Source: Anaerolineales bacterium (GTDB lineage Bacteria; Chloroflexota; Anaerolineae; Anaerolineales; E44-bin32). From it: a DNA stretch of 64,000 nucleotides. Under the pieces are notes generated by a model, which did no database searches, was not told where the DNA came from, and was given only the letters and a program-made list of their open reading frames with translations. Where the stretch lies: the NCBI GenBank assembly GCA_034430795.1, contig DAOUDJ010000116.1, forward strand, positions 254 through 64,253, written 5' to 3'. A program made the translations under genes and the position numbers. This document shows, piece after piece, positions 324 to 43,340 of the stretch (position 1 is the first letter of the stretch; the number at the start of each line of letters is the position of its first letter).

Positions 324-884
324 ATGCCGAGATTCCCAGCGGTATTCTTGGACCGTGATGGTGTGATCATTGAGAATCGTGCGAATTATATTCGCGGTTG
401 GGACGATGTTAACTTCCTGCCTGGTATCTTTCCCGCACTGCGGCGTCTCTTCGCAAGCGCCTACCGAATTGTGATAGTGACAAATCAATCAGCTATTGGG
501 CGCGGTTTACTTACGCTTGAGCTAGCGAACGAAATCAATACCAGAATCGTTAATGCGATCGAACAACAAGGCGGACGGATCGATTCCGTGCAGATGTGCC
601 CGCACACACCACAGGATAAATGCTCGTGCCGCAAGCCTGAGCCGGGCATGCTTCTCCAGGCCAGCGCCGAATTGTCCCTCGATCTGGCGACCTCATTCAT
701 CATCGGCGATTCTAGGTCCGACTTGCTGGCCGGCAAGGCTGCTGGGATCGGGGATCTGGCCCTCGTCCGCACAGGTTTAGGTGCTGACCAGGAAACGCTC
801 TTGTATGCAAGCGACTTATATTCGTTTCATGTATTCGATGACTTAGCGGATGCGATCACCAGACTTCCACTCACTCTAGCCTGA
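324..884 (+). CDS. gmhB: D-glycero-D-manno-heptose-1,7-bisphosphate phosphatase (HAD family IIIA)
   Basis: HAD motif FLDRDGV, VTNQSAIGRG, Zn-binding CPH...CSCRKPEPGM and IGDSRSD. HddA/GmhA domains occur in the same window. Confidence 0.9.
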   Translation: MPRFPAVFLDRDGVIIENRANYIRGWDDVNFLPGIFPALRRLFASAYRIVIVTNQSAIGRGLLTLELANEINTRIVNAIEQQGGRIDSVQMCPHTPQDKCSCRKPEPGMLLQASAELSLDLATSFIIGDSRSDLLAGKAAGIGDLALVRTGLGADQETLLYASDLYSFHVFDDLADAITRLPLTLA

Positions 885-20349: not shown

Positions 20350-21712
20350 TCCTAGCACAAAGTAGCAGTGTCCCCTTTAACCAAAGTTAAAATGTCCCCT
20401 TGGTGGTGAATGCCCAACCACCTGAGGGACAGGTAAAAGTTAGTGACAAACTAACTATGAGCGCAGCAGAACTTACACGTCTTGAAATCATGCATCGACT
20501 TGAAAACAAAAGGCTCTCACAAAAAACGGCTGCCGAAATACTTGGTCTCAGTGTGCGGCAGATCAAACGCATCTGGCGCGCCTATCGTCGACACGGCGCG
20601 GCTGGGCTTGTCTCGAAGAAACGAGGGAAACCAAGCAACAATCGTCTAAAGCCGGGAATCAGACAGCAAGCCTTAGACCTACTCTACAGGCATTATTATG
20701 ACTTTGGCCCGACACTGGCCCACGAAAAACTTACGGAACGCCACCATCTCAAACTCGCCATTGAGACGGTTCGTAAGCTGATGATTGCTGAAGGGCTGTG
20801 GAAACATAAGAAATCCAAGAAAGTGATTGAACACCCGATGCGAGAACGTCGAGCCGGTTTTGGGGATCTCGTTCAGATCAATGGATCGTCTCATGATTGG
20901 TTTGAAGGGCGTTCACCAGCTTTCACGTTACCATTTTTATCAACGACGCAACCGGGCGTCTGATGGAGCTTTTCATTACCCCCGTAAACCTATAGCTATT
21001 GGGCCGCCATGCGGCGTTATTTTCTCTATAGCAAACCCAGTGTCCTCTACAGCGACAAAAGCAGCATTTTCAGGGTCAATTGGGCTAACACAGTTTGGGC
21101 GATCCATGAAAGAGCTGGGGGTTGAGGTTATCTGTGCCAATACCCCGCGGGCAAAAGGAAGAGTTGAAAATGTGAATGGCACGCTGTAGGATCGATTGGT
21201 CAAGGAGATGAGACTGGCCGGGATCTCAGTGATAGAAGAGGCTAATCCATGGTTGCCAACCTTCATGGCCGATTTCAATACTCGCTTCGATGTCGTACCC
21301 CACAGCTCGCATGACGCTCATCGCCCCTTGCTCTCAACCGATGATTTAGACCGTCGTTTCACCTGGCAGGAAACCCGCACTTTGAGTAAAAACCTCACAT
21401 TAAAATTCAAGAAAGTGATCTACCGAATCCAATCCAAACGCCCGACCTATGCTATGCGCAATGTGGCGGTTACGGTCTGTGAAAATGAAAGGGGGAATAT
21501 TGAAATCCTGTACCGAGACCATTCCTTGCCTATACAGCATCTACCACAAACAAGCACGAAAAGCGGAGGAGGTTACACGCAAGTCCCTGGATAAAGCATT
21601 GAAGAAGGTCTGGAAGCCGCCTGCGAATCATCCATGGCGAAATTACGGAAGCGCCAACCCCAGAAAGGAGGTTGACTCTGTCACTGCGTGACATTTCTAC
21701 TTTGGGTTGACA
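20350..21712 (+). mobile_element. ISNCY / IS1202-like insertion sequence, degenerate
   Basis: Right end ...GTGACATTTCTACTTTGGGTTGACA (21712). The left end has two copies of a CAAAGT..AATGTCC-like motif. Flanking direct repeats at 20334-20350 and 21713-21729 match 15/17. Confidence 0.8.
20457..21691 (+). pseudogene. ISNCY transposase pseudogene
   Basis: HTH MSAAELTRL...LGLSVRQIKR, YYDFGPTLAHEKL, VQINGSSHDWFE (catalytic D replaced by N) and PRAKGRVENVNGTL*DRLVKE. Split over four ORF pieces. Confidence 0.85.
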
Positions 21713-30227: not shown

Positions 30228-31067
30228 TTAAATTTTTTCAGCAAGGATGCCCAGATGGTGCGCAAAGCGTTTTTTCAACCATTGTAGATTACTGTTTTCA
30301 AAATAAGACAGGCGGGCAATGTTTTGGCTAACGTCTGGGTAACGATCATTATCATAATATGGCAGTTGATCTGCGGACCATTTATAACGGTTTTGTGGTC
30401 TTGCTTGATTTGCTAATCCTGTTAGAAACGGAAAAAAGTCAACAATCAGCTGTCCAAAATCGACGATATCAGGCCACCAAGGGCAATCGAGCCAGACAAT
30501 TTCACAAAGCTTTAGACCTAAGTTGTTAAGCATGTCCTGCCATGCTTCTGGTCGCATGAGGTCAATACACCCATGATCCCACTCTTGTTTTGCTACTTTG
30601 TGGTGTAAACGGTGTAGGCAGAAAGAGTAATTTTGAGAATTCGGCACGAAAAATAGGATATATTTTTTGCTCAACCTGCACATTTGACTTAACAAGGGTT
30701 GAGGATTGGCAAGTCTTGTGAGTACATTAAAATTCCATACAAGATCAAATTGTTTTTCATGTATGGGTAGATCACTTTTTGTAGAGACATTGAAATCCGG
30801 TCGGTTTTTAGGTGCATAAATTGACCAGACAAACTCGGCGAAACTTGCACAGGTTTGGGATGGTAACACAAGAGTCACATGGATTCCGTGGATACCTAAT
30901 ATTAAACTATTGATCCCAACTATTCCCGCAACCCCATCATCCGGTCCCTCAAGAACTGTTCTAATCCCTCTAACTTTACAAAGCGTTAAGAGATAGCGGT
31001 TTATGGCATAACGTTCAAAGGTTGTTCCTAACCCAACGTCTGATTTTATTACCTCACTTGAGCGCAT
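30228..31067 (-). CDS. Class I SAM-dependent methyltransferase-like protein
   Basis: VLEGPDDGVAG (atypical motif I), FDLVWNFNVL (motif IV-like) and ILFFVPN. Confidence 0.62.
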   Translation of the reverse strand: MRSSEVIKSDVGLGTTFERYAINRYLLTLCKVRGIRTVLEGPDDGVAGIVGINSLILGIHGIHVTLVLPSQTCASFAEFVWSIYAPKNRPDFNVSTKSDLPIHEKQFDLVWNFNVLTRLANPQPLLSQMCRLSKKYILFFVPNSQNYSFCLHRLHHKVAKQEWDHGCIDLMRPEAWQDMLNNLGLKLCEIVWLDCPWWPDIVDFGQLIVDFFPFLTGLANQARPQNRYKWSADQLPYYDNDRYPDVSQNIARLSYFENSNLQWLKKRFAHHLGILAEKI

Positions 31068-31307: not shown

Positions 31308-31445
31308 ATCCCCCCCGCTATCTTCGTTTGCTGATCACTCGCCCAGATGCCTATTTCTTTAGTCAGGTAATCCGGCTATCCTTTCGTTGGCCGGTTGATC
31401 TTTGAAGCAGCTTCCAGCTCGGTTTGGGCACGTGCACCCATTGGA
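31308..31445. repeat. Dispersed ~140-bp direct repeat, copy B (overlaps the 3' end of the B12 radical SAM gene)
   Basis: Aligns with 2835-2973, sharing an exact 26-nt core. Confidence 0.85.
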
Positions 31446-32910
31446 CACTGCTCTTTAGTAGACTCGGCATTCTACATCGTAGTTTAACCCAGAAGAATTC
31501 TGGATCCTGGAGAGCTAGAGCGAGAATTCGTATCCCTCTCTTGAGCCATGATGTGCTTGGTGCAAGTTCCTCCATAACGCTTTTCCTGAACGCTTTTAAT
31601 TCCCTCGCGCTGTAATGTGGATTCTGAATGACATAATCAACGGATCGTAATTTCCGGAAATCGAAGCTATCTGGTAAATGGCCTGATTTGCGATAACTGT
31701 CATAGAGCTCAGTCCCCGGGAAAGGTGTAACTAACGAGAACCAAAACCCGCTGCAGCCAAGGTCGCGTAAATGGCGTGCGAACTGAACGGTCTGCTCCAA
31801 ATCATCCCATGTCTCTTCAGGGAAACCCATAACAAAGAAGGAGTTCACACCCAGGTGTAATTTTCGAGCAAGTTTCAACACTCGAAGACAATCTTCAAGA
31901 TTTTGTGTCTTATGAATAATGTTAGTGAGCGTATTCTGGCTCCCACTTTCCGGTGAGATCGAGATGTCCTGGAAACCAGCTGCTTTCATCAATTTCAGGA
32001 GTTCCTCATCCAATGAATCCGCTCTGACGCCATTGCGAACGTGCATACGGATGCCGAATTTCCTCTCTGCGATCGCCTGGAACAAGCTCTTTGCCCAGTT
32101 GTGGTTTACGGTCAGATTATCATCTTCGAAGTAAATCTCCTGAATGTTGTATTTCCGCTTCCAGTGGGCAATCTCTGCAACGATATTCTCAACACTGCGA
32201 CGTCGAATGGTGTGGCCCATCACGGTATGGATCGAGCAAAAAACACAACGATAGATACAGCCACGTGTCGCGATCATGTTGATCCAGCGCCTGCCGGAAC
32301 CCCAGATTTTTTCAAGCGGAAGCAAATCTAAGGCAGGAAACGGGAGCTGGTCTAAATCCTGGATGTACGGCACGCGTGAAGATTGTGCCCCCCCTCGTTG
32401 GAGGACACCCGCGATCGGTCGCTCTTCCTCATCCTGGTTTAAGGAACAGATCAATTCCAGCAACGCATATTCACCCTCACCCAGAACGCGATAGTCAAAG
32501 ATATCCAATACTTTGTCGTCAACATAGCCGGTGATGTGATTGCCTCCGGCGACCAGCACGACGTGAGAGAAACGAGACTTGATCTTTTCTGCTAGCTTGA
32601 CGGCGAGATCTTGCTGGCACGTAAATGGAACCGTGATTCCAATCAGATCTGGATCAGCGCTGGCAATACGATCCAGGATCTGCTCATCAGAAAGCCCCAA
32701 CTCCAGCCAGCCAGGTTCAACATCAGGTCTCAGGTTCGAGCGATCTTCGGCGTAACTGTCAAGAATTGTGACTTCGAGCCCATGGGTTCGTATAACTGCT
32801 GCAAGATACGCCAAGCTAAGGTGGAAGGAATGCCCATCCTCAAGATAGGTGTCAACCTCTTCCAATACGGCAGGTAAACTGATAAGAAAAACCTTCTGAA
32901 TTTCCTTCAT
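31363..32910 (-). CDS. Cobalamin-binding radical SAM enzyme (class B methylase-like)
   Basis: N-terminal B12-binding domain (LSLAYLAAVI, PDLIGIT, VAGGNHIT, GEGE), ATRGCIYRCVFC, FEDDNL and FVMGFPEET. Confidence 0.9.
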   Translation of the reverse strand: MKEIQKVFLISLPAVLEEVDTYLEDGHSFHLSLAYLAAVIRTHGLEVTILDSYAEDRSNLRPDVEPGWLELGLSDEQILDRIASADPDLIGITVPFTCQQDLAVKLAEKIKSRFSHVVLVAGGNHITGYVDDKVLDIFDYRVLGEGEYALLELICSLNQDEEERPIAGVLQRGGAQSSRVPYIQDLDQLPFPALDLLPLEKIWGSGRRWINMIATRGCIYRCVFCSIHTVMGHTIRRRSVENIVAEIAHWKRKYNIQEIYFEDDNLTVNHNWAKSLFQAIAERKFGIRMHVRNGVRADSLDEELLKLMKAAGFQDISISPESGSQNTLTNIIHKTQNLEDCLRVLKLARKLHLGVNSFFVMGFPEETWDDLEQTVQFARHLRDLGCSGFWFSLVTPFPGTELYDSYRKSGHLPDSFDFRKLRSVDYVIQNPHYSARELKAFRKSVMEELAPSTSWLKRGIRILALALQDPEFFWVKLRCRMPSLLKSSVQWVHVPKPSWKLLQRSTGQRKDSRIT

Positions 32911-33073: not shown

Positions 33074-35380
33074 CTACTCAACCGAGGGCAAATCGGAACG
33101 GTCGAGATCCTCCACGCTGGTTTCATGGTCACGCTCAGATTCATTCGAAAGGATATAGGTAATAGCCGCCAAGAAAGTCAGATGACCCTCCGAGTAACCC
33201 TTGTCACGCAAACGTGCAAGCGATAGGACACCGACTGTATCACCTCGAATTACAAGCGGGATGCTAACGACAGAGCGTGAAATTTTGTCACCCTCGCCTT
33301 GGATCCAGCGCGCATCATCCCGCGTGTCCTCAACAAGGGTTGGAGCACGATAATCGAAAACCCATTTCGCAAGGCCATTCTGTCCAAATTCAAGCACCTC
33401 TTCACGCTTCCGTTTTACAAGTTCTCCAGCATAGAGTGTATAACCCCCGATTGGCTTTCCATCCCGGTCGTAGCTAAGAACACTGCCGCTGTCTGCCTTT
33501 AACAGTCCATATGCACTCTTTAACACTTGTTTGAGAAGTCCGTCGTAGGCATCCTCGTCCAGCAAGGACCGGTTGAGTTGGTAAATCCACTCCACCTTCG
33601 AGAGGGTCTCCCCCTCCCGAGCGGTATTAGAATCGACCTCGATGGAAGTAGCAATCTGCCTTGGGGAGAGCTCGTACATCGCTGCAGCCTCCTGGTCTCT
33701 CCCCGATGCATCGAGTCTTGCTGTGCTCGGTATTTGCTTCATCGAGCGAATGATCATGTGCTCTAGCATCAAATGAATATCCTCAACCTGCTCAATAACG
33801 TGATTCGAAATATGGATGTGAAGGTCAACCATCCCGGCCAAACGTCCACCATCGAATCCCGTGAAGGCAATGGTATACGCTCCAGTTTCACGCGCATAGC
33901 GAATCCCCCGAACTACATTTTCCGAATTCCCACTGGCGGAAATCCCGATTACAACATCGCCTTGCGCGAGGTCGTTTTGAAGCTGTCGACAAAATACGTT
34001 CTCGTAGCCATCATCGTTTGCATAGGCTGAGAAAACCGGCATGTTATCAGCCAAGCCGAATGCCTTGAAATCTGGCCACCCTTCATGGCGCATGTTCTTG
34101 TTTAGGTCACAGACAAAATGAGAGGCCGTCGACGCACTCCCGCCGTTCCCCATGATGAAGATGCGATTTTCGCTCATTCGTTTGGCATGAAGGATGTCGA
34201 CCGCTGCTTGAATCTTCTCAAGTGGCAGATCCTGTACCGTCCTCGTGAAATCCCGCTGATATTGACGCAGAAGTGACGTCGTTTCCGTATTCGACGCTGT
34301 AGAGGTAATCATTTTTATAACAACACCTTTCCCTTCAAAATGATCCGAGTGAACGTCAATTGACTTATGTATCCGCTTTCTACGGTCTTCTGATCCATTT
34401 TCGCTACGAGGGTAGTTGAAAATAGTTTTGACCCCGTCTCGTTCCAAACGGAAAGGAAGCTCACGCAAATTCCGTAAAGCGCTGCGCACAGAGGCCTGAT
34501 GATCCTTCGTGCAATACAGCAGCAAAAAACCGCCCCCGCCAGCTCCCGTAATTTTTCCTCCCAGCGCACCCGCCTCCTTCGCAGCTGCGTACATTTCGTC
34601 AATCACGGTACTGGATATGCCATTCGCGAGCCTTTTTTTCAGTGTCCAACCGTAGTGGAGCATGTGCCCTAACTCGTCCACGTTTCCGGCCTCGAGTTCA
34701 ACACGTGCCAGTCTTGCCAACTGCTTCATTTCAGATAAAACATCCAGATGTTGATGGATGTTCATCTGCTGTTCACTTAGGATGGTCTCAGCCCGTCGTG
34801 CGATGCCAGTATAAAAGAGCATTAAGTTCGAATTCAAATCACGCTTCACCTCCGATGAGAGTGTTACCTGGTCGAGTATGGTACGCCCATCCTGATTTAA
34901 CTCCATAAAACGTATTCCACCAAAAGCAGCGATGATTTGATCCTGAATGCCGATGGGTTTTCCCAGGATATTAATCTCGATCTGACAGGCTTCACGCGCC
35001 AATCTCTCAGCGGTGACATGCTCACCGCAAAACGCATACAGGGCCTGCAACGTTCCAACGGTGACCGTACTCGACGATCCTAATCCTGAGCCAGCCGATG
35101 GGATGTCGCCCATGGTGGTAATTTCCACGCCATGGCTAACTCCCGTCATCCGCAAAGCTTCGCGAATGAGTTCGTGTTGAAGATCATCAACTTGATCGAC
35201 CAGCTCGGTACGCGTATACCCAACACGTATTTTTTGGTCGAATCGAGTCTTCACGCTTACGAAAATGTACTTATCGATAGCAGACGAGAGAATGCAGCCA
35301 CCCTCGTTCATATAATACGAGGGCAGATCTGTTCCTCCCCCGAAAAAACTAACCCTTAATGGGGATTGAATGATGATCAT
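33074..35380 (-). CDS. hddA/gmhA: Triple fusion: heptose-7-phosphate kinase (HddA, GHMP) + sedoheptulose-7-phosphate isomerase (GmhA, SIS) + GAF domain
   Basis: [27 protein letters not shown] and [14 protein letters not shown]; then [35 protein letters not shown] and [14 protein letters not shown]; then GAF-like GLAKWVF...[13 protein letters not shown]...SVVSIPL...VGVLSL. Confidence 0.9.
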
Positions 35381-35463
35381 CGATACTCCTCCTGCACAAA
35401 CGGCCCGATCTGATCCTCTCTGGGGAAAGATGGGGGGATATTCGATCCGACGAACAGTTTTGA

Positions 35464-37035
35464 TTAATTTGCATAACGGATATCACTGTTGATAGCGAGC
35501 AAAGTGGAAGCCGTTAGCAACAGCGCCAGATCATCCTCGGTGAACTTCCCTTTCTGGGGGTGAGTTAGGGTTAGCACACCTCGAACGCGGTGTGATTCGA
35601 CCAGGGGCACACTAATGGCAGACCTTGCCTTACATGCAGTCTGTTCCCATGATGTTCGAAACCAACGGGGATCCGAGCTCGTATCACGCACAAGGGCGGG
35701 CTTGCTCCTTCTGCTCACCCAGCCTGCCAGGCCTTTTTCCAGTGTGGTCTCAAGGCTGTGCTGACTCGTTTCTTGAATGTCGTCGTTGAAAGCGATTACG
35801 GCGTTTGTAATATGACCCTCATCATCGAGAATCAGAATGCTCCCACCAACTCCACCGGTACTGGCCATCGTAGCTTTAAGAATCTCGGCTAGTGTGACAG
35901 TGTGCAGTGACTTTCCGTAAAGCGCTTGTTCGATCCAACGAATTTTTTGCCGAGTCTTATCACCTTTGGTGCTCTGGACAGGATCGCGTCCAGCGGATGA
36001 CATCGATGGTTCATGCTCCCTGTGGCTTAGACTCCTGGCGTGTAGCTCCACAAGTTCTTCCTTCGAAGTTACTTCGTCGGTTGACAGGCGTTGAACCATC
36101 ACAGGAGCTATGCTTTCCGATTTTCTGAAGTAAGCAACCGTCTTTGCCAACCCTTCGGCCAGGGCCACTTCAGGCTTCCAACCCAACCGTTCGCCAGCCC
36201 GTGTAGCATCGAGGTAAATGTGTCGCGTCTCGCCCACTTTTGCCGGACCGTTCTGCGCGGCGCTGCGAAAATCCGTCAACTCGGAAAGATAGTCGAATAT
36301 TTCCTTTACCGAGGTGCCTTTTCCGGAACCGAGATTGAAAATGCCGTGTTCGATGGATGATTCAACCGCCATAACATTCGCACAGGCACAATCACCGACG
36401 TAAACATAGTCACGTGTTTGCTCACCATCACCATTAATAGTCACCGGTTTCCCCGCCAGCATCAATCCGGTGAAGATCGCGATAACCCCCGCCTCACCAT
36501 TAGGATCTTGTCGAGGTCCATACACGTTGGGGTAGCGCAAGATGATCGATTCCAAACCGTAATTCTCGTAATACATATATAAATAATGCTCCACAGTATG
36601 TTTGCTCGCGCCATACTGGCAGATGGGGTTGATCGGATGATTCTCATCACATGGTAGATATTCCGGTTCACCATAAACAGCGCCACCGGTCGAGATGTAG
36701 ACAAACCTGCGTACACCGAATTCCTTCGCACACTCAATCAGATTTAGCGAGCCAACCACGTTAACTTGCGCGTCGAATAACGGGTCGGCGACACTCCGCC
36801 GCACATCCATCTGGGCCGCGTGATGGTTGACTACCTCCGGCTGTTCACGAAAGAATATCTCCCGCAATTGTGAGTCCTGGATATCCATCTGATAGAACTT
36901 AGCACGCGGATCCAGGTTTGAAAGCCGACCCGTGGATAGATCGTCGACCACAACGACGTCGTAGCCAAGGTCTAAGTACCTTGAAACCACATGCGATCCA
37001 ATGAACCCCGCTCCACCTGTAACCAATATTTTCAT
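35464..37035 (-). CDS. UDP-glucose 4-epimerase-like SDR fused to a C-terminal GAF domain
   Basis: [39 protein letters not shown] and [12 protein letters not shown]; then GAF-like GSILILD...[24 protein letters not shown]...SAISVPL...GVLTL. Confidence 0.9.
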
Positions 37036-37081: not shown

Positions 37082-38587
37082 CTAATATGCCCCTTTACCT
37101 TTCAACACCGCCGGGATGGTCTGAAACAATAGGTAAATATCGAACCAGAGATTCCAATTGCGGATGTAATACATGTCCATCCTCACGCGCTCTTGATAAC
37201 TGACATCTGAGCGCCCGCTTACTTGCCACAGGCCGGTAATGCCCGGTTTCAATGTGAGCAGATTGAGCCCCCACTGATCATATTTCTGCATCTCCTCCGG
37301 TGAGATCATCCTTGGGCCAACCAGCGACATCTCGCCTCGTAATACATTAATGAGCTGGGGTAGCTCATCCAGGCTGAACTTTCTCAACATTCTGCCCACG
37401 CGGGTGACCCGGGGATCCTTCTGAAGCTTATGCTCTTGGGCGAGCTTCTCTTGAAGTTCGGGGTTGTGTGTGAGGATTTCGTCCCCGTCGATGTACATCG
37501 TTCGGAATTTGAAGGCATCGAATTTCACCCCATTGAGGCCCATTACTCGCCTGCGGTGGATGATCAAACCCGTCGAGTCGAGTTTGATGGCGACCGCAAT
37601 CACTAAAAGCACAGGCGAGATCAGCACCAAGCCCAGTAAAGCCAGTGAGTAATCCATGCCTAGCTTCATGAACCACTCTATCCCCTTTAATCGGACCTTA
37701 TCGACGCTCACCAGCGGGACATAGGCCAGTTCCTTCACCTGCAAACCGGTCGTAATGATTTCAAACAATCCAGAAGAAAGCCTGAGGTTGACACTGCTAG
37801 AGACACCATAGCGCTGGAAGATCGAGAGCATCTCCTCGCGCGAGAGCGCGCTTGTGGCCAGGATGATCTCTCGAATGCCATATCGCGTGACGATTTCATC
37901 TAGCTGGTCCAGTGACCCAATGATCATTTCCTTTGGGAAACCATTCAGGACGGGAGGATGCTGATTGTGAAGAACGCCTTTGAGTTGAAGCCCTGATTTT
38001 GTCCATCTCATGAGTTGGTAGGCGAGCAACCTCGCCTCTTCATTCGCCCCGATGACCAGAGCCGGCATAACGAAATATCCGTACTGCCTGAGCTGATAGA
38101 CGACGCGCCGCAGGAGAAAACGTCCCACTACCCCAAACAGAAATGTGAGAAACCATGAGGATAAGATCCAGCCCCTGGCGATCAACAGGCTAGGCTCAAG
38201 GAAGCCTGCCACGATGACCAGGAGCAGTCCAAAAGTGGCCGCCCGGAAGAATAGAGCGTATTCTTTTGTCCCACCGAGTAAATTTTGGCGCTGGTAGAGA
38301 CCAATCACGGCAAAGACTATGATCCACAAGGGAATCGTGAGGATCATAAGGCTTTCGTAATACGCAAACGAAGGGTCTGCATCGAGCTTGAAGATTGGCA
38401 GGGACAGCTCGAAACGAATCCAGTATGCAATACGAAACGCGGCGCCAGTCATCACGATGTCGTTAATGATTAGCGCTGTCAGATAAAATGGCCACTGCCA
38501 AGACTCGGGGATCCACGGTTTTATGTGCGGTTTAGCAATCGCTGGGGTAAGTTCCCAACTATCCTCAGTGTTGGTTGTCGATGACAT
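37082..38587 (-). CDS. Polyprenyl-phosphate glycosyl-1-phosphate (initiating) transferase, WcaJ/WbaP/WsaP-like
   Basis: Four N-terminal TMs, Rossmann-like VIGAN, KFRTMY, DPRVTRVGRMLRKFSLDELPQLINVLRGEMSLVGPR and KPGITGLWQVSGRS. Start 38587 has a GAGGAG RBS. Confidence 0.92.
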   Translation of the reverse strand: MSSTTNTEDSWELTPAIAKPHIKPWIPESWQWPFYLTALIINDIVMTGAAFRIAYWIRFELSLPIFKLDADPSFAYYESLMILTIPLWIIVFAVIGLYQRQNLLGGTKEYALFFRAATFGLLLVIVAGFLEPSLLIARGWILSSWFLTFLFGVVGRFLLRRVVYQLRQYGYFVMPALVIGANEEARLLAYQLMRWTKSGLQLKGVLHNQHPPVLNGFPKEMIIGSLDQLDEIVTRYGIREIILATSALSREEMLSIFQRYGVSSSVNLRLSSGLFEIITTGLQVKELAYVPLVSVDKVRLKGIEWFMKLGMDYSLALLGLVLISPVLLVIAVAIKLDSTGLIIHRRRVMGLNGVKFDAFKFRTMYIDGDEILTHNPELQEKLAQEHKLQKDPRVTRVGRMLRKFSLDELPQLINVLRGEMSLVGPRMISPEEMQKYDQWGLNLLTLKPGITGLWQVSGRSDVSYQERVRMDMYYIRNWNLWFDIYLLFQTIPAVLKGKGAY

Positions 38588-39806
38588 CCGTATATAACTC
38601 CTCAAGTTGGTGTGCGATCAGATTCCAATCGTGGTGCTGTTCGACGTATCGCCGCCCGGCTGCACCGATCTCTTCACGAAGATGACGTTGATCCACTAGG
38701 TCGATCACATGCTTGGCAAAGTCAACCGGACGATCTGCAACCAAAAGCTCGCGCCCGTATCGAACCTGCAAAGCTGCGATCGCTGGCGGAGTGGCGACAA
38801 CCGGGATACCACAAGCCATGGCTTCAAGTACCTTGTTTTGAATCCCCATGCCGTACACAAGCGGCACAACCGCGATGGAAGCCTCCTGGAAAAATGCGCG
38901 GAGATCTGGAACGCTTCCAGTCACCTCAATGCGCTCGTCCTTCGACAGAGCTTGAATACTGGCCGGCGGATCTTTGCCCACGATCAGAAGCCTCACCTCA
39001 GGTCTGCTGCGCCAGATCAAGGGCAGGATGTCCTCGACGAAATACTTGCACATAGCGACATTGGCGTGGTAGCTCATCTTGCCAGTCATGATGAGCGTGG
39101 CAGCATCGTCTGATCCATGGTCCTCCGGTTTGAAGTACGTCAGATCGACACCATTTGGTACAACAGAGATCTCCGCTGGAGAATTCCCCCGATTCCTCAA
39201 GGACTGCAACGCCTCGCGGTCCGCGGCAGACGTTACCAGCACGCGATCGAATTGACTGACCAGCCACGATTCATATTGCTCGTTCCTTCCGAGCTCGAAC
39301 CGCGAAATCCAGCGATTGAGAGGCCGGATTGCATGGTTAGAAGTCAATCGGAAGAGCGCGCTGATACAGTCGACGCTGTCAAACACTATGGGGATAGGAT
39401 GGTTCTGATCTCGAAGCATGGCCTTTAACACCAGGCCATAGCGTGCCGCCCGTAAATGCTCTACGTGGATCAGGTCAAATTCACGGTCTAACCTTGAAAA
39501 CAAGCTTCCAATACCCTTGGATGAAAACGCACCTGGTTGCCAGGCAAAAGCGGCTTGCAGCGGGATGCGAGTTGGAAGGGCGAGCAGTAAATTCCAGGCT
39601 ACCCTCATCTTCGTGAGAGACACCGATTCAACGTGCTCGCAAAGCTCACGCATGAACTTCAAATCACTGTCGCTGCCGCTTCCATCATCGATTGCAAAGA
39701 GGGACACTTGATGCCCGCGCGCAACGAGGGCGCGGATGAAGTTGAAGGGTCGTACCCGTACCAGATTCGGAGTGTAGGGCAGGACGAAAAGAATACGGAG
39801 GCTCAA
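38565..39806 (-). CDS. GT4 glycosyltransferase
   Basis: RILFV, VVPNGVD, TGKMSYHAN and GIQNKVLEAMACGIPVVAT. Probable TTG start at 39806 (ORF track extends to 39956). Confidence 0.88.
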   Translation of the reverse strand: MSLRILFVLPYTPNLVRVRPFNFIRALVARGHQVSLFAIDDGSGSDSDLKFMRELCEHVESVSLTKMRVAWNLLLALPTRIPLQAAFAWQPGAFSSKGIGSLFSRLDREFDLIHVEHLRAARYGLVLKAMLRDQNHPIPIVFDSVDCISALFRLTSNHAIRPLNRWISRFELGRNEQYESWLVSQFDRVLVTSAADREALQSLRNRGNSPAEISVVPNGVDLTYFKPEDHGSDDAATLIMTGKMSYHANVAMCKYFVEDILPLIWRSRPEVRLLIVGKDPPASIQALSKDERIEVTGSVPDLRAFFQEASIAVVPLVYGMGIQNKVLEAMACGIPVVATPPAIAALQVRYGRELLVADRPVDFAKHVIDLVDQRHLREEIGAAGRRYVEQHHDWNLIAHQLEELYTDVIDNQH

Positions 39807-39921: not shown

Positions 39922-41490
39922 TTACCTTCTACGGATGAACGTGATGATGATGACACCTACAACCAGAAGGACAACCGGGAGGAGACTCCGCCCGAGTAGG
40001 AGGATGAAATCCGTCTCCTGGATCAAACCAGTTTCAACCAGCTCCAACGTGACCGATGGGACCGGCAATCCAGTTTCCGACGTTGCGGATTGCTCAGCTT
40101 CCGTTGTACCTGTAAGTGTTGGTTCCAGGCTGGCTGCCGTTGTCCGTTCCGTAGGCATCGGCATGGGAGTAAAACGTGGGGCATCGGTCTGGCTGGTCGC
40201 ATACCAAACGATGTACTCCCCCGCATCACTTTGCCAGATGTGCTCGGCATCACGCACGAACCAAACGACGTGCAAGCGATTTCCCTCACCTATAGCTATT
40301 GCTGGCCACTCCGGCGCGTCACCCACATAGCGGATAATTTCGTCTGGAGAGGACCATGACGAACCGTTCCAGCTGATGTGTAAGATAGACCGGGTTTCCA
40401 GATCGCCCTCAAAATCTGGCTGGCCTTCTACCCGACCGACCATTACCAGATGGATCTCGCCGGCCGTATCCACCGCCATATCCATCCTGTCCAACGCGGT
40501 CAAATAAGCTCCCCTGATACCTTCAATCTGCACCGGTTCTGTCCAAGAGAGGCCATTATAGAGTGAACGCTGGTAGTAGACACCTCTATCCGCGAGGGAC
40601 AGGTAGGCCACGATCAAACGATCTCTGCGATCGATCGCGAGGGCGACATTTTTTGCATCCATCCCTATGTCAGATAATTTGGCGGGAGTGGACCATCTTT
40701 GAGCGCCCGGATCAAGGCGGGTATAGAGAATGCTCGATGGACCGTTCAAATAGCCCAAGTCGCCCCCTACACCAGCCTCCCAGGCGACGTGCAAACGATC
40801 CTTGCTGTCGATCACGATCGATGGCTTCGCGGCACCGGTGGGCAGGATTGAGATATCCTTGGGAATCGACCAGGAAAGGCCTTGATTATCCGATGAACGA
40901 TAGAACACATGGAAACAATTTAAGCACTCACTTGTTGGAACATTCGCCGTATAGATCAGATGGAGCCTTCCGGACCCATCTTCCACGACCTCCGAGAAGT
41001 ATCCATACGAAATAATGACTTGAGGCTCTTCCCAGTTCGACGCTGTTGAGATCTGTAGTTGGTCCGACCGCTTATAATACACACCACGAGCGTTGCGATA
41101 CGTCAGGTGAAAACCATAGGTGCGATCAACGGTGAGCACCGGCCGTGTAGCATAACTCCCACTGACCTCCTTCAGCGAGGCGATGTCTACAGGCTCTGTC
41201 CAGGCTGCCGCAGCCCCGCGTCCGCGGTACATGACGACATCATAGATTCCACCATCCGTTTTCCTGATCGTGCTCGCCCACACAACATGGACACGCCCGA
41301 ACCGGTCTGTAGCGACATCCGGAAACCATCCGCCGGAGTCTGAAGAGAGCTCGAAAGGTCTCGACCATACCTGATCCTGGGCACTTGTGTCGGAAGGAAC
41401 TACAACCGCTATTAATAAGATGAAAGCCAGCAACAGGAGCCAGAATATCATTGATCTAAAGGTCCCTATGATTCTAGTCATCTTATCCAC
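39922..41490 (-). CDS. Surface beta-propeller (BNR/Asp-box, sialidase-like fold) protein with a C-terminal TM anchor
   Basis: Signal peptide, repeated D..GRLHV.W blades, Asp-box YRSSDNQGLSWS, Thr/Ser/Pro-rich linker, and a TM followed by RRR at the C-terminus. Confidence 0.7.
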   Translation of the reverse strand: MDKMTRIIGTFRSMIFWLLLLAFILLIAVVVPSDTSAQDQVWSRPFELSSDSGGWFPDVATDRFGRVHVVWASTIRKTDGGIYDVVMYRGRGAAAAWTEPVDIASLKEVSGSYATRPVLTVDRTYGFHLTYRNARGVYYKRSDQLQISTASNWEEPQVIISYGYFSEVVEDGSGRLHLIYTANVPTSECLNCFHVFYRSSDNQGLSWSIPKDISILPTGAAKPSIVIDSKDRLHVAWEAGVGGDLGYLNGPSSILYTRLDPGAQRWSTPAKLSDIGMDAKNVALAIDRRDRLIVAYLSLADRGVYYQRSLYNGLSWTEPVQIEGIRGAYLTALDRMDMAVDTAGEIHLVMVGRVEGQPDFEGDLETRSILHISWNGSSWSSPDEIIRYVGDAPEWPAIAIGEGNRLHVVWFVRDAEHIWQSDAGEYIVWYATSQTDAPRFTPMPMPTERTTAASLEPTLTGTTEAEQSATSETGLPVPSVTLELVETGLIQETDFILLLGRSLLPVVLLVVGVIIITFIRRR

Positions 41491-41654: not shown

Positions 41655-43340
41655 CTATTGATCCACACGGAAGATCGTGACAACACCTTGAGAATAGGTT
41701 TCGACCAAGTTCTCGGCTCCCAAGGGTGAGTAAGCTCCTAGATCTCTCTCAGCCGGTCCGTAAAATAAGTAATCGACACCGCCCGTGGTGAGAATTGCTT
41801 CACGGACCGCAGGCGAGGTGCCTTCCTCAAAGAGCAATTCGACATTCTCCCGCTTGGAGTAGAAGTCCAGAGTCTGAGCCCAATGTGCCAGGTATGCCCT
41901 CGCCCCAGTCCAAGCTGGGATATATTGCCCGATCGTTAGACTGCTGATGATCACATCGTCACCGTCCGCATAGTCTTCGAGCCATTGCAGCGCCCGGATT
42001 TCATCATCGTGCAAGTAAAACGGGTAATCATGCCGGCTGAGATCGAAGAAACGCCACGACCAGAGATAGATATTCGTCGGTACAACAAGCAGTAACAACA
42101 GTAGAGGGATCACGCCGGGTTTGCGTACAGTCGCATGAAGTTTAGCGCCCGATCGGAAATTTCTCAGAGACGGCAGGACATGTTCATACACAAAGGTAGT
42201 TGCGAGGATGGCGATTGGAAGCTGCCAGCCATTCAGCAGGTGGATCTGGAAATCTGTGGGTATGTAAATCAACAGGAAATTGGCGCCAAACCAGGAGAGG
42301 AGCAGGATCTCAGCATCACGTTTCTCTCGAAGTCGATCCGGGCGTTCAAGAAAGAAAGCTGCCAGCGCCAAGAGAAACGCCGGCCCCATGAGGATGGGAA
42401 GATGCAGGAGATTGGGGGTGAACACGCCGGCGTTTGCAAATTGGTCGAGCACCTCTCCCCAAACCGGATCGAACGTTGTCAGTAGGACCGAATAAAGAGC
42501 CGGCCAGAAGGAGAATAACCCAATCACGACCAAAGCCTTGAGCGGAAAGCGCGGCACCGTCCTACGTTGAACTGCCTTGGCCAAAACGAATGTGAAAAGG
42601 ATGCCATAGACAAGGACCAGATCGTAGGCGTGCTGCCAGCCAAGGAATTGGGCGAACAATCCGGCGAAGACGGCATACCGGATCTGTTCTTTAGCCAGGC
42701 TCTCGAGGAACAGGATAAAAACGAGTATGTACAAGGCCGCGGCGATGAAATGGGGGTAGGCCATGATGCCCAAGAAGGTGTTGCCCTCAGCGATGAAAAC
42801 GTCGAGTGGGAAATACAGCACCCCGTTCGTGACCGTATACTTCAACAACACCAGAACCCATCCGAATCCCGAGCCGAACGTAAATACCAGGAATGCAGCT
42901 CGTCGTTGTTCTACCTCACCCAAGAAACGGGCGATCACCAAATACCCGGTAGCTAATAAGAGTCCCCCCGAGATGAGGCGGAAGATCTGGAAAGTCAGAT
43001 CAAGGCTCAGTCCTAACCAGCGCTTCAGATGACCCAATCCCCACCAGAGCAAGTTGAAGAAAACCGGTTCATTCGCCTCGGGCGTCAATTTGTTCGACGC
43101 TAGTGCGGAGGTTGAAAGCTCCCGCATCCACGAAAAGTATTGGCTATGATCCGGCACATCAAGCATGATTCCCATGAATTGCTTATCGGGAGGCGCGGAG
43201 AGATAAGCATAGAGATAAGGGATACTCGTCAAGACTAAGACGATTGTAATAATCATCAAGACGAAGCGCCATTCGACCGCTGCGATCGATCGTCTGGTCT
43301 CAGAATTGAATGGCTTCTCAGATGATTCTCGTTCAACCAT
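41655..43340 (-). CDS. GT-C-like polytopic membrane protein
   Basis: DVPDHSQYFSW after TM1, YPHF, about 11 TMs, and a soluble C-terminal domain (IPAWTGARAYLAHW). Confidence 0.62.
   Translation of the reverse strand: MVERESSEKPFNSETRRSIAAVEWRFVLMIITIVLVLTSIPYLYAYLSAPPDKQFMGIMLDVPDHSQYFSWMRELSTSALASNKLTPEANEPVFFNLLWWGLGHLKRWLGLSLDLTFQIFRLISGGLLLATGYLVIARFLGEVEQRRAAFLVFTFGSGFGWVLVLLKYTVTNGVLYFPLDVFIAEGNTFLGIMAYPHFIAAALYILVFILFLESLAKEQIRYAVFAGLFAQFLGWQHAYDLVLVYGILFTFVLAKAVQRRTVPRFPLKALVVIGLFSFWPALYSVLLTTFDPVWGEVLDQFANAGVFTPNLLHLPILMGPAFLLALAAFFLERPDRLREKRDAEILLLSWFGANFLLIYIPTDFQIHLLNGWQLPIAILATTFVYEHVLPSLRNFRSGAKLHATVRKPGVIPLLLLLLVVPTNIYLWSWRFFDLSRHDYPFYLHDDEIRALQWLEDYADGDDVIISSLTIGQYIPAWTGARAYLAHWAQTLDFYSKRENVELLFEEGTSPAVREAILTTGGVDYLFYGPAERDLGAYSPLGAENLVETYSQGVVTIFRVDQ

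What the first reader, a model, noticed from the sequence alone, without database searches (positions are those of the whole stretch)
33074..37035. Two adjacent nucleotide-sugar enzymes each carry a C-terminal GAF domain (HddA-GmhA-GAF and epimerase-GAF)
Seen: neighbouring co-oriented genes directly downstream of the initiating transferase both end in a ~150-aa GAF-like domain (about 33130-33580 and 35475-35925). The two share GS(V/I)L, GLA.WV, P.LV.DT..D.RW, S.(V/I)S(I/V)PL and GVL.L. Neither has a kinase, cyclase or DNA-binding output, and the catalytic motifs upstream are intact. Established: GAF domains are ligand-sensing and dimerisation modules, normally found on signalling proteins. Inference: precursor supply for the glycan (heptose and UDP-sugar) may be under coordinated allosteric control, or the two enzymes may assemble through GAF-GAF contacts into a precursor-channelling complex. 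I do not know of this architecture being described.
Basis: partly seen in the sequence, partly recalled or inferred. Interest (0 to 1): 0.78.

Follow-up and report, generated by a model that had tools for sequence, protein, structure and literature searches.

The report
GAF domains fused to sugar-precursor enzymes
In a large cell-surface polysaccharide gene cluster of an uncultured Anaerolineales bacterium, two neighbouring enzymes that make sugar building blocks each carry a well-conserved GAF "sensor" domain on a floppy tether, the most elaborate form of a so far undescribed but widespread Anaerolineae habit of attaching a GAF domain to the first enzyme of heptose synthesis.

Summary
ORF A (33074-35380, minus strand, 768 aa) is HddA-like GHMP kinase + GmhA-like SIS isomerase + GAF. 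ORF B (35464-37035, minus strand, 523 aa) is GalE-like epimerase + GAF. Both GAFs pass Pfam thresholds and give confident AlphaFold GAF folds. The fusions are not artefacts: about 46 and 50 protein clusters (45-92 % identity) keep the architectures, always as neighbours downstream of the priming phosphoglycosyl transferase. Among close relatives both GAFs have dN/dS 0.10-0.14, like the catalytic domains, while the adjoining 25-65 aa linkers have 0.44-1.16. New context: the window shows the derived end of a series. Many Chloroflexota have separate epimerase, hddA and gmhA genes without GAF. A large Anaerolineaceae family, including cultured Longilinea arvoryzae, has stand-alone GmhA-GAF only. 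One clade fused hddA to gmhA-GAF and added a second, related GAF to the epimerase. The same GAF subtype heads soluble sensor histidine kinases, and the nearest solved GAF binds cAMP. Most likely the GAFs are ligand-responsive regulators of precursor supply; the ligand is unknown. An obligate GAF-GAF enzyme complex is unlikely as the original role. This is a new variant of a known kind, of moderate interest.

The parts
33074..35380 (-). ORF A, 768 aa: HddA-like GHMP kinase + GmhA-like SIS isomerase + C-terminal GAF
   Evidence: ORF; Pfam and NCBIfam; PDB matches to the WcbL/HddA heptokinases and to GmhA; 46 full-length relatives.
34421..35380 (-). GHMP sugar-kinase domain (residues 1-320), HddA/WcbL-like
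   Evidence: GHMP_kinases_N and _C. NF049969 HddA 147 bits, below the 600-bit cut-off. Best PDB matches 4USM/4USK, 3K85, 4N3O. dN/dS 0.11-0.14.
34256..34420 (-). Linker 1 (residues 321-375) between kinase and isomerase. It lies where separate hddA and gmhA genes have a stop codon and intergenic spacer in other Chloroflexota.
   Evidence: 19 % pairwise identity, 35-69 aa. Junction comparison. dN/dS 0.21-0.49.
33737..34255 (-). SIS domain (residues 376-548), GmhA-like sedoheptulose-7-phosphate isomerase
   Evidence: SIS_2 and SIS. TIGR00441 gmhA 111 bits, below the 209-bit cut-off. Aligned to 1X94 and 2I22 with H180 conserved and E65 replaced by Asp. dN/dS 0.06-0.10.
33590..33736 (-). Linker 2 (residues 549-597), a flexible tether between the isomerase and GAF-A
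   Evidence: 13 % pairwise identity, 25-52 aa, polar-rich. dN/dS 0.44-1.16. Low pLDDT at its end.
33146..33589 (-). GAF-A domain (residues 598-745), followed by a 23-aa unconserved tail (33077-33145)
   Evidence: GAF_2 50.6 bits. AF2 pLDDT 83.5 with GAF topology. Foldseek. Invariant G632 S633 G669 L670 W673 T686 D689 R691 W692 R702 P708. dN/dS 0.13-0.14.
35464..37035 (-). ORF B, 523 aa: GalE-like NAD-dependent epimerase + C-terminal GAF
   Evidence: ORF; Pfam and NCBIfam; about 50 full-length relatives.
36118..37035 (-). SDR epimerase domain (residues 1-306), closest to UDP-hexose 4-epimerases
   Evidence: Best PDB match 4ZRM, T. maritima UDP-glucose 4-epimerase, 315 bits over residues 1-306. 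TIGR01179 galE 197 bits, below the 262-bit cut-off. About 72 % identical to abundant stand-alone 311-aa Anaerolineales epimerases. dN/dS 0.11-0.12.
35941..36117 (-). Linker (residues 307-365), a flexible tether between the epimerase and GAF-B
   Evidence: 17 % pairwise identity, 35-63 aa. dN/dS 0.49-0.66.
35482..35940 (-). GAF-B domain (residues 366-518)
   Evidence: GAF_2 64.8 bits, GAF 50.7, GAF_3 35.0. AF2 pLDDT 92.5. Foldseek. dN/dS 0.10-0.12.
37082..38605 (-). Priming polyprenyl-phosphate glycosyl-phosphotransferase (Bac_transf), the conserved upstream neighbour
   Evidence: TIGR03025 389 bits. The same position in L001, L002, L003, L005 and L065.
324..884 (+). GmhB-like HAD phosphatase, the probable third step of the heptose pathway, 32 kb away
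   Evidence: Hydrolase_like and PNK3P. The same type of gene lies close to the module in L003, L005 and L065.
31363..32910 (-). B12-binding radical SAM enzyme directly downstream, a conserved neighbour in the window's closer relatives
   Evidence: The same gene follows ORF A homologues in L005 and L087.

Best explanation
The two GAF domains are functional regulatory (sensor) modules tethered to glycan-precursor enzymes.

Shown:
- Both are genuine GAF folds.
- They are kept at fixed length, under purifying selection as strong as the catalytic domains, on long unconstrained linkers.
- They belong to one GAF subtype that is also the N-terminal sensor domain of soluble histidine kinases.
- They sit in a conserved, apparently co-transcribed module: priming transferase, epimerase, HddA, GmhA.

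Inferred history: a GAF was first attached to GmhA, the first committed step that pulls sedoheptulose-7-phosphate out of central metabolism towards D-glycero-D-manno-heptose. That stand-alone GmhA-GAF is widespread in Anaerolineaceae. In the window's clade hddA then fused to gmhA-GAF, and a second GAF of the same subtype was added to the UDP-hexose 4-epimerase that probably feeds the priming transferase.

Inferred mechanism: each GAF binds a small cytoplasmic ligand and dimerises through its N-terminal helix. Because the tether is flexible, the signal is probably passed by ligand-dependent docking onto the catalytic domain, or by a change in its oligomeric state (GmhA is a tetramer, GalE a dimer), not through a rigid signalling helix. 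The result would be post-translational throttling of heptose and UDP-sugar supply for the surface glycan.

The ligand is unknown. A cyclic mononucleotide is the first candidate, because the nearest solved GAF by sequence is the cAMP-binding Lcd1 GAF. An end-product nucleotide sugar or a C/N-status metabolite such as 2-oxoglutarate are alternatives.
For: GAF identity: Pfam scores above cut-off, AF2 models with pLDDT 83.5 and 92.5, Foldseek probability 1.0 to GAF structures.

Conservation: 46 and about 50 clusters with full architectures. Identical synteny in relatives at 46-54 % identity. GAF length fixed at 148-155 aa with about 40 % identity, against linkers at 13-19 %. dN/dS for the GAFs 0.10-0.14, catalytic domains 0.05-0.14, GAF-adjacent linkers 0.44-1.16.

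Target logic: stand-alone GmhA-GAF is a large family, all 120 listed hits being SIS+GAF. It is present in cultured Longilinea arvoryzae next to a GAF-less epimerase and a separate HddA. Outgroups lack GAF, and the fused double-GAF clade is monophyletic beside a GmhA-GAF clade.

Sensor character: the GAF-A and GAF-B HMMs cross-score at 134-142 bits, against about 25 bits for generic GAF repeats. The N-terminal GAF of GAF-GAF-PAS-HisKA-HATPase kinases scores 155-172 bits. Subtype-specific residues S631, L670, T686, W692 and T/S720 are shared with those kinases and lie on beta1, the alpha3/alpha4 junction, the beta4-beta5 loop and beta6, elements that line the canonical GAF pocket (the pocket assignment is from general knowledge of GAF structures).

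Ligand lead: the profile search puts the cAMP-bound Lcd1 GAF (5W10) first at 57.8 bits, the next hit at 37 bits.

Dimerisation: an N-terminal helix precedes the GAF core in both models. That helix is what dimerises Lcd1 (PMC11800159).

Co-transcription: no minus-strand terminator or promoter match between the three genes, and a 4-nt gene overlap in L001-L003.
Against: - No ligand is identified. Identity to any ligand-defined GAF is 12-25 %, and I could not map the cAMP-contact residues.
- The geometry is unlike characterised GAF-regulated enzymes: the GAF is C-terminal, on a floppy linker of variable length.
- Over long distances the GAFs diverge more than the catalytic domains (40 % vs 60-72 %), and GAF-A and GAF-B are only 25 % identical in this genome. 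A single conserved ligand is therefore not assured.
- L003 has lost the GmhA GAF while keeping the cluster, so the domain is dispensable in at least one lineage.
- The histidine kinase with the same GAF subtype is not genomically linked to the cluster.
- GAF-tree bootstraps are weak, 14-43 %, so the order of events rests on architecture distribution and a poorly resolved host-gene tree.
- There is no experimental evidence.
Confidence: 0.55

Rival explanations
1. Scaffold or metabolon: GAF-A and GAF-B heterodimerise and bring the epimerase and the kinase-isomerase together, perhaps at the membrane with the priming transferase, to channel precursors. No ligand is needed.
For: The two GAFs are of one subtype and cross-score strongly. 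The genes are always adjacent and translationally coupled in several relatives. GAFs commonly dimerise through the N-terminal helix, which is present in both models.
Against: Most genomes with this GAF have it on GmhA only, with a GAF-less epimerase, and L003 has it only on the epimerase. So each GAF works without the other. There is no within-genome co-variation of the two GAFs (32 % vs 31 %; the window's partner ranks 15th of 20). The two enzymes act in different pathways (heptose and UDP-hexose), so there is no intermediate to channel between them.
Confidence: 0.12
2. Ligand-independent homo-oligomerisation or stability module: the GAF simply dimerises and fixes a higher-order assembly of GmhA tetramers and epimerase dimers, or improves solubility or half-life, without sensing anything.
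For: Flexible, unconstrained linkers fit a tethered association domain better than a rigid allosteric relay. Many GAFs have no known ligand. The N-terminal dimerisation helix is present.
Against: The subtype-specific conserved residues cluster on pocket-forming elements rather than only on the dimerisation helix. The same subtype occupies the sensor position of histidine kinases. The nearest solved relative is a ligand-binding GAF. Purifying selection over the whole domain is as strong as in the enzymes.
Confidence: 0.22
3. The GAF domains are themselves catalytic, like the GAF-fold free methionine-R-sulfoxide reductases, and add a further enzymatic step.
For: fRMsr structures (3KSF, 3MMH, 3RFB, 1VHM) appear among the Foldseek matches.
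Against: There is no conserved cysteine in either GAF family; the invariant residues are G, S, L, W, T, D, R and P. The fRMsr matches are no better than those to sensor GAFs. The profile score to fRMsr is about 21 bits, against 58 for Lcd1.
Confidence: 0.02
4. Artefact or decaying remnant: the fusions come from assembly or frameshift errors or recent stop-codon loss, and the GAFs are not functional.
For: Some apparent variants are artefacts: L004 is a fragmented contig, and L033 has SIS and GAF in overlapping frames in a nanopore MAG.
Against: Identical architectures occur on dozens of independent contigs from JGI, ENA, NCBI and Logan, including contigs of 1.6 Mb and 345 kb and a cultured isolate for the GmhA-GAF form. 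dN/dS is 0.10-0.14.
Confidence: 0.01

Closest known systems
GDP-D-glycero-alpha-D-manno-heptose pathway enzymes GmhA, HddA, GmhB, HddC (Aneurinibacillus thermoaerophilus S-layer glycan, Campylobacter jejuni capsule, Burkholderia pseudomallei WcbL)
   Same: The GHMP-type heptokinase and the SIS isomerase are the best PDB and NCBIfam matches. A GmhB-type HAD phosphatase is in the window and close to the module in relatives. The genes are embedded in a surface-glycan cluster.
   Different: Known pathway enzymes are single-domain proteins with no sensor domain. Here the kinase and isomerase are fused and carry a GAF. NCBIfam equivalog cut-offs are not reached. No HddC nucleotidyltransferase is in the window.
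Lcd1 of Leptospira interrogans (GAF-GGDEF, cAMP-activated diguanylate cyclase; PDB 5W10)
   Same: It is the nearest solved GAF by sequence profile (57.8 bits) and among the top Foldseek matches. It has an N-terminal alpha1 helix that mediates dimerisation.
   Different: In Lcd1 the GAF is N-terminal to a signalling output domain. Here it is C-terminal to metabolic enzymes on a floppy linker. Identity is only about 20-25 %, and cAMP binding is untested here.
PtsP / EI-Ntr (GAF + PEP-utilising phosphotransferase; PDB 3CI6, 3TRC) and GAF-regulated PDEs, cyclases and HD-GYP (4MCW)
   Same: These are precedents for a GAF attached to an enzyme as an allosteric sensor. They are among the top structural matches.
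   Different: In all of them the GAF is N-terminal, and in the characterised cases it is coupled through a defined helical linker (own knowledge). The output enzymes are signalling or phosphotransfer enzymes, not nucleotide-sugar precursor enzymes.
GHMP-SIS (HddA-GmhA) fusions without GAF in Desulfovibrionales and other phyla (about 527 aa)
   Same: They have the same kinase-isomerase fusion order at 34-41 % identity (P0058-P0111).
   Different: They have no GAF and no GAF-bearing epimerase neighbour. They are probably an independent fusion: the Chloroflexota fused clade is nested among Chloroflexota genes that are separate.
PelD of the Pel exopolysaccharide system (GAF + degenerate GGDEF c-di-GMP receptor)
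   Same: A GAF-containing protein that gates exopolysaccharide production post-translationally (PMC7112168, listed).
   Different: PelD is a dedicated membrane receptor that binds c-di-GMP at its GGDEF I-site (own knowledge). It is not a precursor-supply enzyme. The Pel epimerase PelX has no GAF.

Membership tests
GAF domain (Pfam clan; PF13185 GAF_2, PF01590 GAF) | Profile score above Pfam gathering threshold | tested here: met
   ORF A GAF_2 50.6 (cut-off 28.6) and GAF 34.1 (22.4). ORF B GAF_2 64.8, GAF 50.7, GAF_3 35.0.
GAF domain (Pfam clan; PF13185 GAF_2, PF01590 GAF) | GAF fold: six-stranded antiparallel sheet flanked by helices, with N- and C-terminal helices | tested here: met
   AF2 pLDDT 83.5 and 92.5 with the expected order of elements. 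Foldseek probability 1.0 to more than 370 GAF chains at E <= 0.001.
GAF domain (Pfam clan; PF13185 GAF_2, PF01590 GAF) | Binds a small-molecule ligand in the pocket | not testable with these tools
   Only indirect evidence: subtype-specific conserved residues on pocket-forming elements and a nearest solved relative that binds cAMP.
Cyclic-nucleotide-binding GAFs (PDE2/5/6/10, CyaB1/2, Lcd1) | Conserved cNMP-contact residues in the pocket | not tested
Only overall profile similarity is known: 57.8 bits to 5W10, 27-36 bits to the PDE GAFs.
GmhA, sedoheptulose-7-phosphate isomerase (TIGR00441) | Score above the NCBIfam equivalog cut-off | tested here: not met
   111 bits against a cut-off of 209. 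GmhA is still the best family, ahead of DiaA at 71.7 bits.
GmhA, sedoheptulose-7-phosphate isomerase (TIGR00441) | Catalytic acid/base pair (E. coli E65 and H180) | tested here: inconclusive
   H180 is conserved as H536 in 'EDIH'. E65 is replaced by the invariant D425 in 'HFVCDL'. The change is conservative but untested.
GmhA, sedoheptulose-7-phosphate isomerase (TIGR00441) | Genomic association with the other heptose-pathway genes | tested here: met
   It is fused or adjacent to the HddA-like kinase in all 85 loci examined. A GmhB-like HAD is nearby. HddC was not found in the window.
HddA, D-glycero-alpha-D-manno-heptose-7-phosphate kinase (NF049969) | Score above the NCBIfam equivalog cut-off | tested here: not met
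   147 bits against a cut-off of 600. HddA is the best family, and the best PDB matches are the heptokinases WcbL (4USM/4USK), 3K85 and 4N3O.
HddA, D-glycero-alpha-D-manno-heptose-7-phosphate kinase (NF049969) | GHMP kinase motifs II ([10 protein letters not shown]) and III (GAGGGG) | tested here: met
   [14 protein letters not shown] (residues 92-105) and [10 protein letters not shown] (276-285), invariant across the family.
GalE-type UDP-hexose 4-epimerase (TIGR01179, SDR superfamily) | Score above the NCBIfam equivalog cut-off | tested here: not met
   197 bits against a cut-off of 262. The best solved relative is T. maritima UDP-glucose 4-epimerase 4ZRM at 315 bits, full length.
GalE-type UDP-hexose 4-epimerase (TIGR01179, SDR superfamily) | GxxGxxG NAD-binding motif and the Ser/Thr-Tyr-Lys catalytic triad | tested here: met
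   GGAGFIGS (residues 7-14), S115 in 'STGGAVYG', Y141-x3-K145 in 'YGASK', aligned to 4ZRM.
GalE-type UDP-hexose 4-epimerase (TIGR01179, SDR superfamily) | Substrate is UDP-Glc/Gal or UDP-GlcNAc/GalNAc | not testable with these tools
   This is inferred from the closest structures only. Its constant position next to hddA leaves open an activity on a nucleotide-heptose.

The most novel reading that the evidence does not exclude
Anaerolineae use one dedicated GAF sensor subtype to read a single intracellular signal (for example a cyclic nucleotide) at two levels at once. At the transcriptional level it acts through a soluble GAF-GAF-PAS histidine kinase. At the enzyme level it acts on the first committed step of heptose synthesis (GmhA-GAF) and, in the window's clade, also on the UDP-hexose epimerase that feeds the priming transferase. 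That would be a previously unknown mode of second-messenger control of surface-glycan production, acting on precursor supply rather than on the synthase or polymerase. It would work by ligand-driven docking or oligomer switching through a flexible tether rather than through a signalling helix.
Probability: 0.25. Interest if true: 0.7.

Novelty: new variant of a known kind. Interest (0 to 1): 0.5.

Why it matters
**Regulation of surface glycans.** Known post-translational control of bacterial surface polysaccharides acts mostly on synthases, polymerases and co-polymerases (c-di-GMP receptors, BY-kinases). A sensor domain built directly into the enzymes that commit central metabolites to glycan precursors would be a different control point.

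**The organisms.** It would be the first regulatory handle on cell-envelope or sheath glycan production in Anaerolineae. These are abundant filamentous bacteria in anaerobic digesters, activated sludge and sediments, and their physiology is poorly known.

**GAF biology.** The family offers a natural series: no GAF, one GAF, and two GAFs with a gene fusion. It includes a cultured representative, *Longilinea arvoryzae* KOME-1. Together these make it possible to ask how a GAF on a flexible C-terminal tether can regulate an oligomeric enzyme.

**Annotation.** Hundreds of database entries are currently named only "SIS domain-containing protein", "GAF domain-containing protein" or "UDP-glucose 4-epimerase".

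Tried and rejected
1. **Exhaustive representative search with a GAF-A profile.** It was meant as a census of other architectures with this GAF. The top 150 were all giant multi-GAF proteins, because scores are summed over repeats. Single-GAF proteins fell below the listing, so no census was possible. Local per-domain rescoring rescued the result that the HK N-terminal GAFs are the same subtype.
2. **A conserved single in-frame stop between the GHMP and SIS parts in most GTDB loci.** It looked at first like programmed readthrough. I rejected that. All three stop codons occur, the SIS genes have their own ATG a few codons downstream, and the best-80 tblastn ranking favours same-frame neighbours because HSPs extend through the stop.
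3. **'SIS-GAF only' proteins.** I first dismissed them as a frameshift artefact because L004 is fragmented. I reversed that after the GTDB loci, the Longilinea locus and one search showed stand-alone GmhA-GAF to be the commonest form.
4. **The 128-aa ORF after the GAF-less kinase-isomerase in L003**, tested as a split-off GAF. It has no Pfam hit and no hit to the GAF-A/B HMMs.
5. **Gene conversion or co-evolution between the two GAFs.** The effect is negligible.
6. **NJ tree of GAF domains to prove that GAF-B is a duplicate of the GmhA GAF.** The topology is suggestive but bootstraps are 14-43 %. The donor could equally be a histidine-kinase GAF.
7. **Genomic linkage of the like-GAF histidine kinase to the glycan cluster.** There is none.
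8. **Search for an HddC-type nucleotidyltransferase in the window.** None was found (Pfam on all ORFs of at least 150 aa; tblastn).
9. **Literature.** No description of GmhA-GAF, HddA-GmhA-GAF or epimerase-GAF was found. The Lcd1 structure paper with the cAMP contacts is not in the held library.

Full report
**1. What is there**

The window is one long array of minus-strand genes for a Wzx/Wzy-type surface polysaccharide. It encodes:
- a BY-kinase/Wzz protein, two Wzx flippases and a Wzy_C protein;
- many GT2 and GT4 glycosyltransferases and two PMT_2 (GT-C) proteins;
- radical SAM enzymes, methyltransferases and AsnB-like amidotransferases.

Within it, 37082-38605 encodes the priming Bac_transf phosphoglycosyl transferase (TIGR03025, 389 bits). 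It is followed, in the direction of transcription, by ORF B and then ORF A.

ORF B (35464-37035, 523 aa):
- residues 1-306 are a GalE-like SDR epimerase;
- residues 307-365 are a linker of about 60 aa;
- residues 366-518 are a GAF domain.

ORF A (33074-35380, 768 aa):
- residues 1-320 are an HddA-like GHMP kinase;
- residues 376-548 are a GmhA-like SIS isomerase;
- residues 549-597 are a linker of about 50 aa;
- residues 598-745 are a GAF domain.

Both GAFs pass Pfam's curated thresholds, and no other domain is present.

AlphaFold2 models built on family alignments are confident (pLDDT 83.5 and 92.5). Both have canonical GAF topology with an N-terminal helix. Foldseek matches hundreds of solved GAF domains at probability 1.0.

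**2. The catalytic parts**

Kinase. The best solved relatives are the GHMP heptokinases WcbL (4USM/4USK), 3K85 and C. jejuni HddA (4N3O). GHMP motifs II and III are invariant.

Isomerase. The best matches are GmhA structures. The catalytic His (E. coli H180) is conserved. The catalytic Glu (E65) is an invariant Asp.

Epimerase. It aligns end to end with T. maritima UDP-glucose 4-epimerase (4ZRM, 315 bits) and has the GxxGxxG motif and the S/Y/K triad.

None of the three reaches NCBIfam's equivalog cut-off (147 vs 600, 111 vs 209 and 197 vs 262). The precise substrates are therefore inferred.

A GmhB-type HAD phosphatase lies at 324-884. No HddC-type nucleotidyltransferase is in the window.

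**3. Not an artefact, and under selection**

Database searches give about 46 clusters with the full GHMP+SIS+GAF architecture (45-92 % identity). They give about 50 with Epimerase+GAF (49-89 %). The sources are JGI, ENA, NCBI and Logan assemblies, and where named the organisms are Anaerolineales.

In every relative whose contig I read, the order is the same: GT4, priming transferase, epimerase-GAF, kinase-isomerase-GAF. These contigs are L001 (1.6 Mb), L002 (345 kb), L005, L007, L055, L087 and L088. In L001-L003 the two genes overlap by 4 nt.

Conservation across the families:

| Region | Length | Mean pairwise identity |
|---|---|---|
| GAF domains | 148-155 aa, nearly fixed | about 40 % |
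| Catalytic domains | - | 60-72 % |
| Linkers | 25-69 aa, variable | 13-19 % |

The linkers are also polar-rich.

Codon-level comparison of the window with two close relatives:

| Region | dN/dS |
|---|---|
| GAF-A | 0.13-0.14 |
| GAF-B | 0.10-0.12 |
| Catalytic domains | 0.05-0.14 |
| SIS-GAF linker | 0.44-1.16 |
| Epimerase-GAF linker | 0.49-0.66 |

The GAFs are therefore functional domains on nearly unconstrained tethers.

**4. The wider picture: a graded series**

I scanned the GTDB species representatives and typed the architecture of 80 loci with local HMMs. This sample is biased towards the best tblastn scores. With the metagenome loci, four states appear:
- **State i.** Separate hddA and gmhA genes without any GAF, often preceded by the same epimerase. 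Found in Ardenticatenaceae, Promineifilaceae, Caldilineales, many Anaerolineales, and outgroups in other phyla.
- **State ii.** Epimerase without GAF, separate hddA, and gmhA-GAF. Found in at least 13 species representatives, including Bellilinea MAGs and the cultured *Longilinea arvoryzae* KOME-1.
- **State iii.** Epimerase-GAF plus fused hddA-gmhA-GAF. This is the window, L001, L002, L005, L007 and L055.
- **State iv.** Epimerase-GAF plus fused hddA-gmhA without GAF (L003 only).

The Longilinea locus was verified with Pfam. In order it has the priming transferase, a 310-aa epimerase, a 324-aa HddA, a 398-aa GmhA-GAF and, next door, a GmhB-like HAD.

A search with the Longilinea protein shows that stand-alone GmhA-GAF is a large family. 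All 120 listed hits, at 51-91 % identity, are SIS+GAF proteins of 377-409 aa. JGI names them 'D-sedoheptulose 7-phosphate isomerase'. NCBI names them 'SIS domain-containing protein' or 'GAF domain-containing protein'.

On an NJ tree of the concatenated kinase and isomerase domains, all outgroups lack GAF. The fused genes form one clade next to a clade of state-ii genes. The backbone is poorly resolved; bootstrap for the fused clade is 27 %.

The most economical history is a GAF gained on GmhA, then fusion of hddA to gmhA-GAF and addition of a second GAF to the epimerase, with occasional loss.

**5. What kind of GAF**

HMMs of GAF-A and GAF-B score each other's families at a median of 134-142 bits. 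Generic GAF repeats of the multi-GAF proteins that dominated the exhaustive search score about 25 bits.

The only other domains in that range (155-172 bits) are the N-terminal GAFs of soluble GAF-GAF-PAS-HisKA-HATPase_c histidine kinases. One such kinase sits in an unrelated neighbourhood.

Five positions are conserved in GAF-A, GAF-B, the stand-alone GmhA GAFs and these kinase GAFs, but are rare in other GAF repeats: S631, L670, T686, W692 and T/S720. In the model they lie on beta1, the alpha3/alpha4 junction, the beta4-beta5 loop and beta6. From general knowledge of GAF structures, these are the elements that line the ligand pocket.

By sequence profile, the nearest solved GAF is the cAMP-bound Lcd1 GAF (5W10, 57.8 bits). 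The next hit is at 37 bits. By fold, the top matches are the HD-GYP PmGH, Lcd1, NifA, PtsP and PDE GAFs, at 12-21 % identity.

The ligand cannot be deduced. Cyclic mononucleotides are the first candidates. No conserved cysteine exists, which excludes an fRMsr-like catalytic GAF.

A GAF tree places the kinase GAFs basal and the stand-alone GmhA GAFs as a grade below GAF-A and GAF-B. Bootstraps are 14-43 %, so the donor of the epimerase GAF is unresolved.

**6. How it most likely works**

Shown:
- genuine, selected GAF domains of a sensor-type subfamily;
- tethered by flexible linkers to GmhA, and in this clade also to the epimerase;
- in a module with no minus-strand terminator or promoter match between its genes.

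Inferred:
- Each GAF binds a cytoplasmic small molecule and dimerises through its N-terminal helix. That helix is what dimerises Lcd1 (PMC11800159).
- It modulates the attached enzyme by ligand-dependent docking or by changing the oligomeric assembly. The variable, unconstrained linkers argue against a rigid signalling helix.
- The primary target, GmhA, is the step that diverts sedoheptulose-7-phosphate from the pentose-phosphate pathway, which is a logical place for a valve.
- The epimerase probably supplies the UDP-hexose for the adjacent WbaP-like priming transferase.

I put this at about 0.55.

The main rival is a ligand-independent oligomerisation or stability module (about 0.22). Three results weaken it:
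- Most genomes have only the GmhA GAF, and one has only the epimerase GAF.
- The two GAFs show no co-variation within genomes.
- The two enzymes share no intermediate.

**7. Comparison with what is known, and novelty**

GAF domains fused to enzymes are well known: PDEs, adenylyl and diguanylate cyclases, HD-GYP, PtsP. So are HddA/GmhA heptose pathways and GHMP-SIS fusions. Three features differ here:
- the kind of enzyme carrying the GAF (nucleotide-sugar precursor enzymes);
- the C-terminal position on a floppy tether;
- the duplication of the arrangement onto two adjacent enzymes.

Four literature searches found no description. Public annotations do not point it out.

I classify it as a new variant of a known kind. 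It is a real, widespread, testable but functionally uncharacterised architecture, with a cultured organism available for experiments.

Interest 0.5. The architecture and its evolutionary series are solid. The regulatory mechanism and the ligand remain inference.

Noticed in passing
P0309, P0356, P0349, P0328, P0330; locus L006 10001-12082: Soluble sensor histidine kinases (GAF-GAF(-GAF)-PAS-HisKA-HATPase_c, 693-1013 aa) carry as their first domain a GAF of the same subtype as the enzyme GAFs (155-172 bits to the GAF-A HMM). The one locus read is not linked to a glycan cluster.
   Followed up: partly
P0054 (501 aa, JGI metagenome): An HddA-like kinase (62 % identical in the kinase domain) is fused directly to a different, divergent C-terminal GAF_2 that does not match the GAF-A/B HMMs. 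This looks like an independent recruitment of a GAF to the same pathway.
   Followed up: partly
window, all ORFs of at least 150 aa; tblastn of the whole window: No HddC-type nucleotidyltransferase is encoded in the 64-kb window, although the GmhA-, HddA- and GmhB-like genes are. The activating enzyme for the presumed heptose must lie elsewhere, or the pathway ends differently.
   Followed up: partly
window 31363-32910 and 30228-31067 (minus strand); L087 5093-7776; L005 12446-13909: A B12-binding radical SAM enzyme directly follows the kinase-isomerase-GAF gene in the window and in close relatives. In the window and L087 a 279-aa protein comes next, methyltransferase-like in the window. This may indicate C-methylation of the sugar.
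   Followed up: no
L008-L086, junction between the GHMP and SIS ORFs: In 57 of 70 loci with separate hddA and gmhA genes, the two genes are in the same reading frame, often with a single stop between the stop-to-stop ORFs. This is probably a ranking bias of tblastn (HSPs extend through the stop) rather than readthrough. All three stop codons occur, and the SIS genes have their own ATG.
   Followed up: partly
window 17182-18435 (minus strand) and 20400-20963 (plus strand): A DDE-family transposase and an HTH (transposase-like) ORF sit inside the glycan cluster, next to a UbiA prenyltransferase and geranylgeranyl-reductase-like FAD enzymes. The plus-strand HTH gene is one of the few genes that break the minus-strand array.
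   Followed up: no
window 9710-12217 (minus strand): An 835-aa protein with a PPDK_N ATP-grasp domain and a PEP-utilizers mobile domain (PEP synthase or rifampicin-phosphotransferase-like) is embedded in the polysaccharide cluster. Its role there is unclear.
   Followed up: no
window 41655-43340, 43345-44907, 21697-23277, 61116-62936, 63125-63901, 58741-59409 (minus strand): Six sizeable ORFs (222-606 aa) in the cluster have no Pfam match. The translation of 41655-43340 is highly hydrophobic and looks like a polytopic membrane protein.
   Followed up: no
L021, L062, L063: A contig binned as 'Flavitalea sp.' (L021) carries hddA-gmhA at Chloroflexota-level similarity (56 % best-segment identity). 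Contigs binned as 'bacterium' (L062) and 'Heimdallarchaeota archaeon' (L063), from one study, carry near-identical hddA-gmhA-like genes (45 %). This looks like binning contamination.
   Followed up: no
L033 8976-10215; L004 8799-11305: SIS and GAF (L033), or pieces of the kinase (L004), lie in separate overlapping frames in long-read MAG contigs. These are probably frameshift errors rather than real gene fission.
   Followed up: partly
window 39922-41490 (minus strand): A 522-aa BNR-repeat-like protein (below the Pfam cut-off) has an N-terminal signal/anchor and a C-terminal transmembrane helix. It sits between the glycosyltransferases and is possibly a surface glycan-binding or processing protein.
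   Followed up: no
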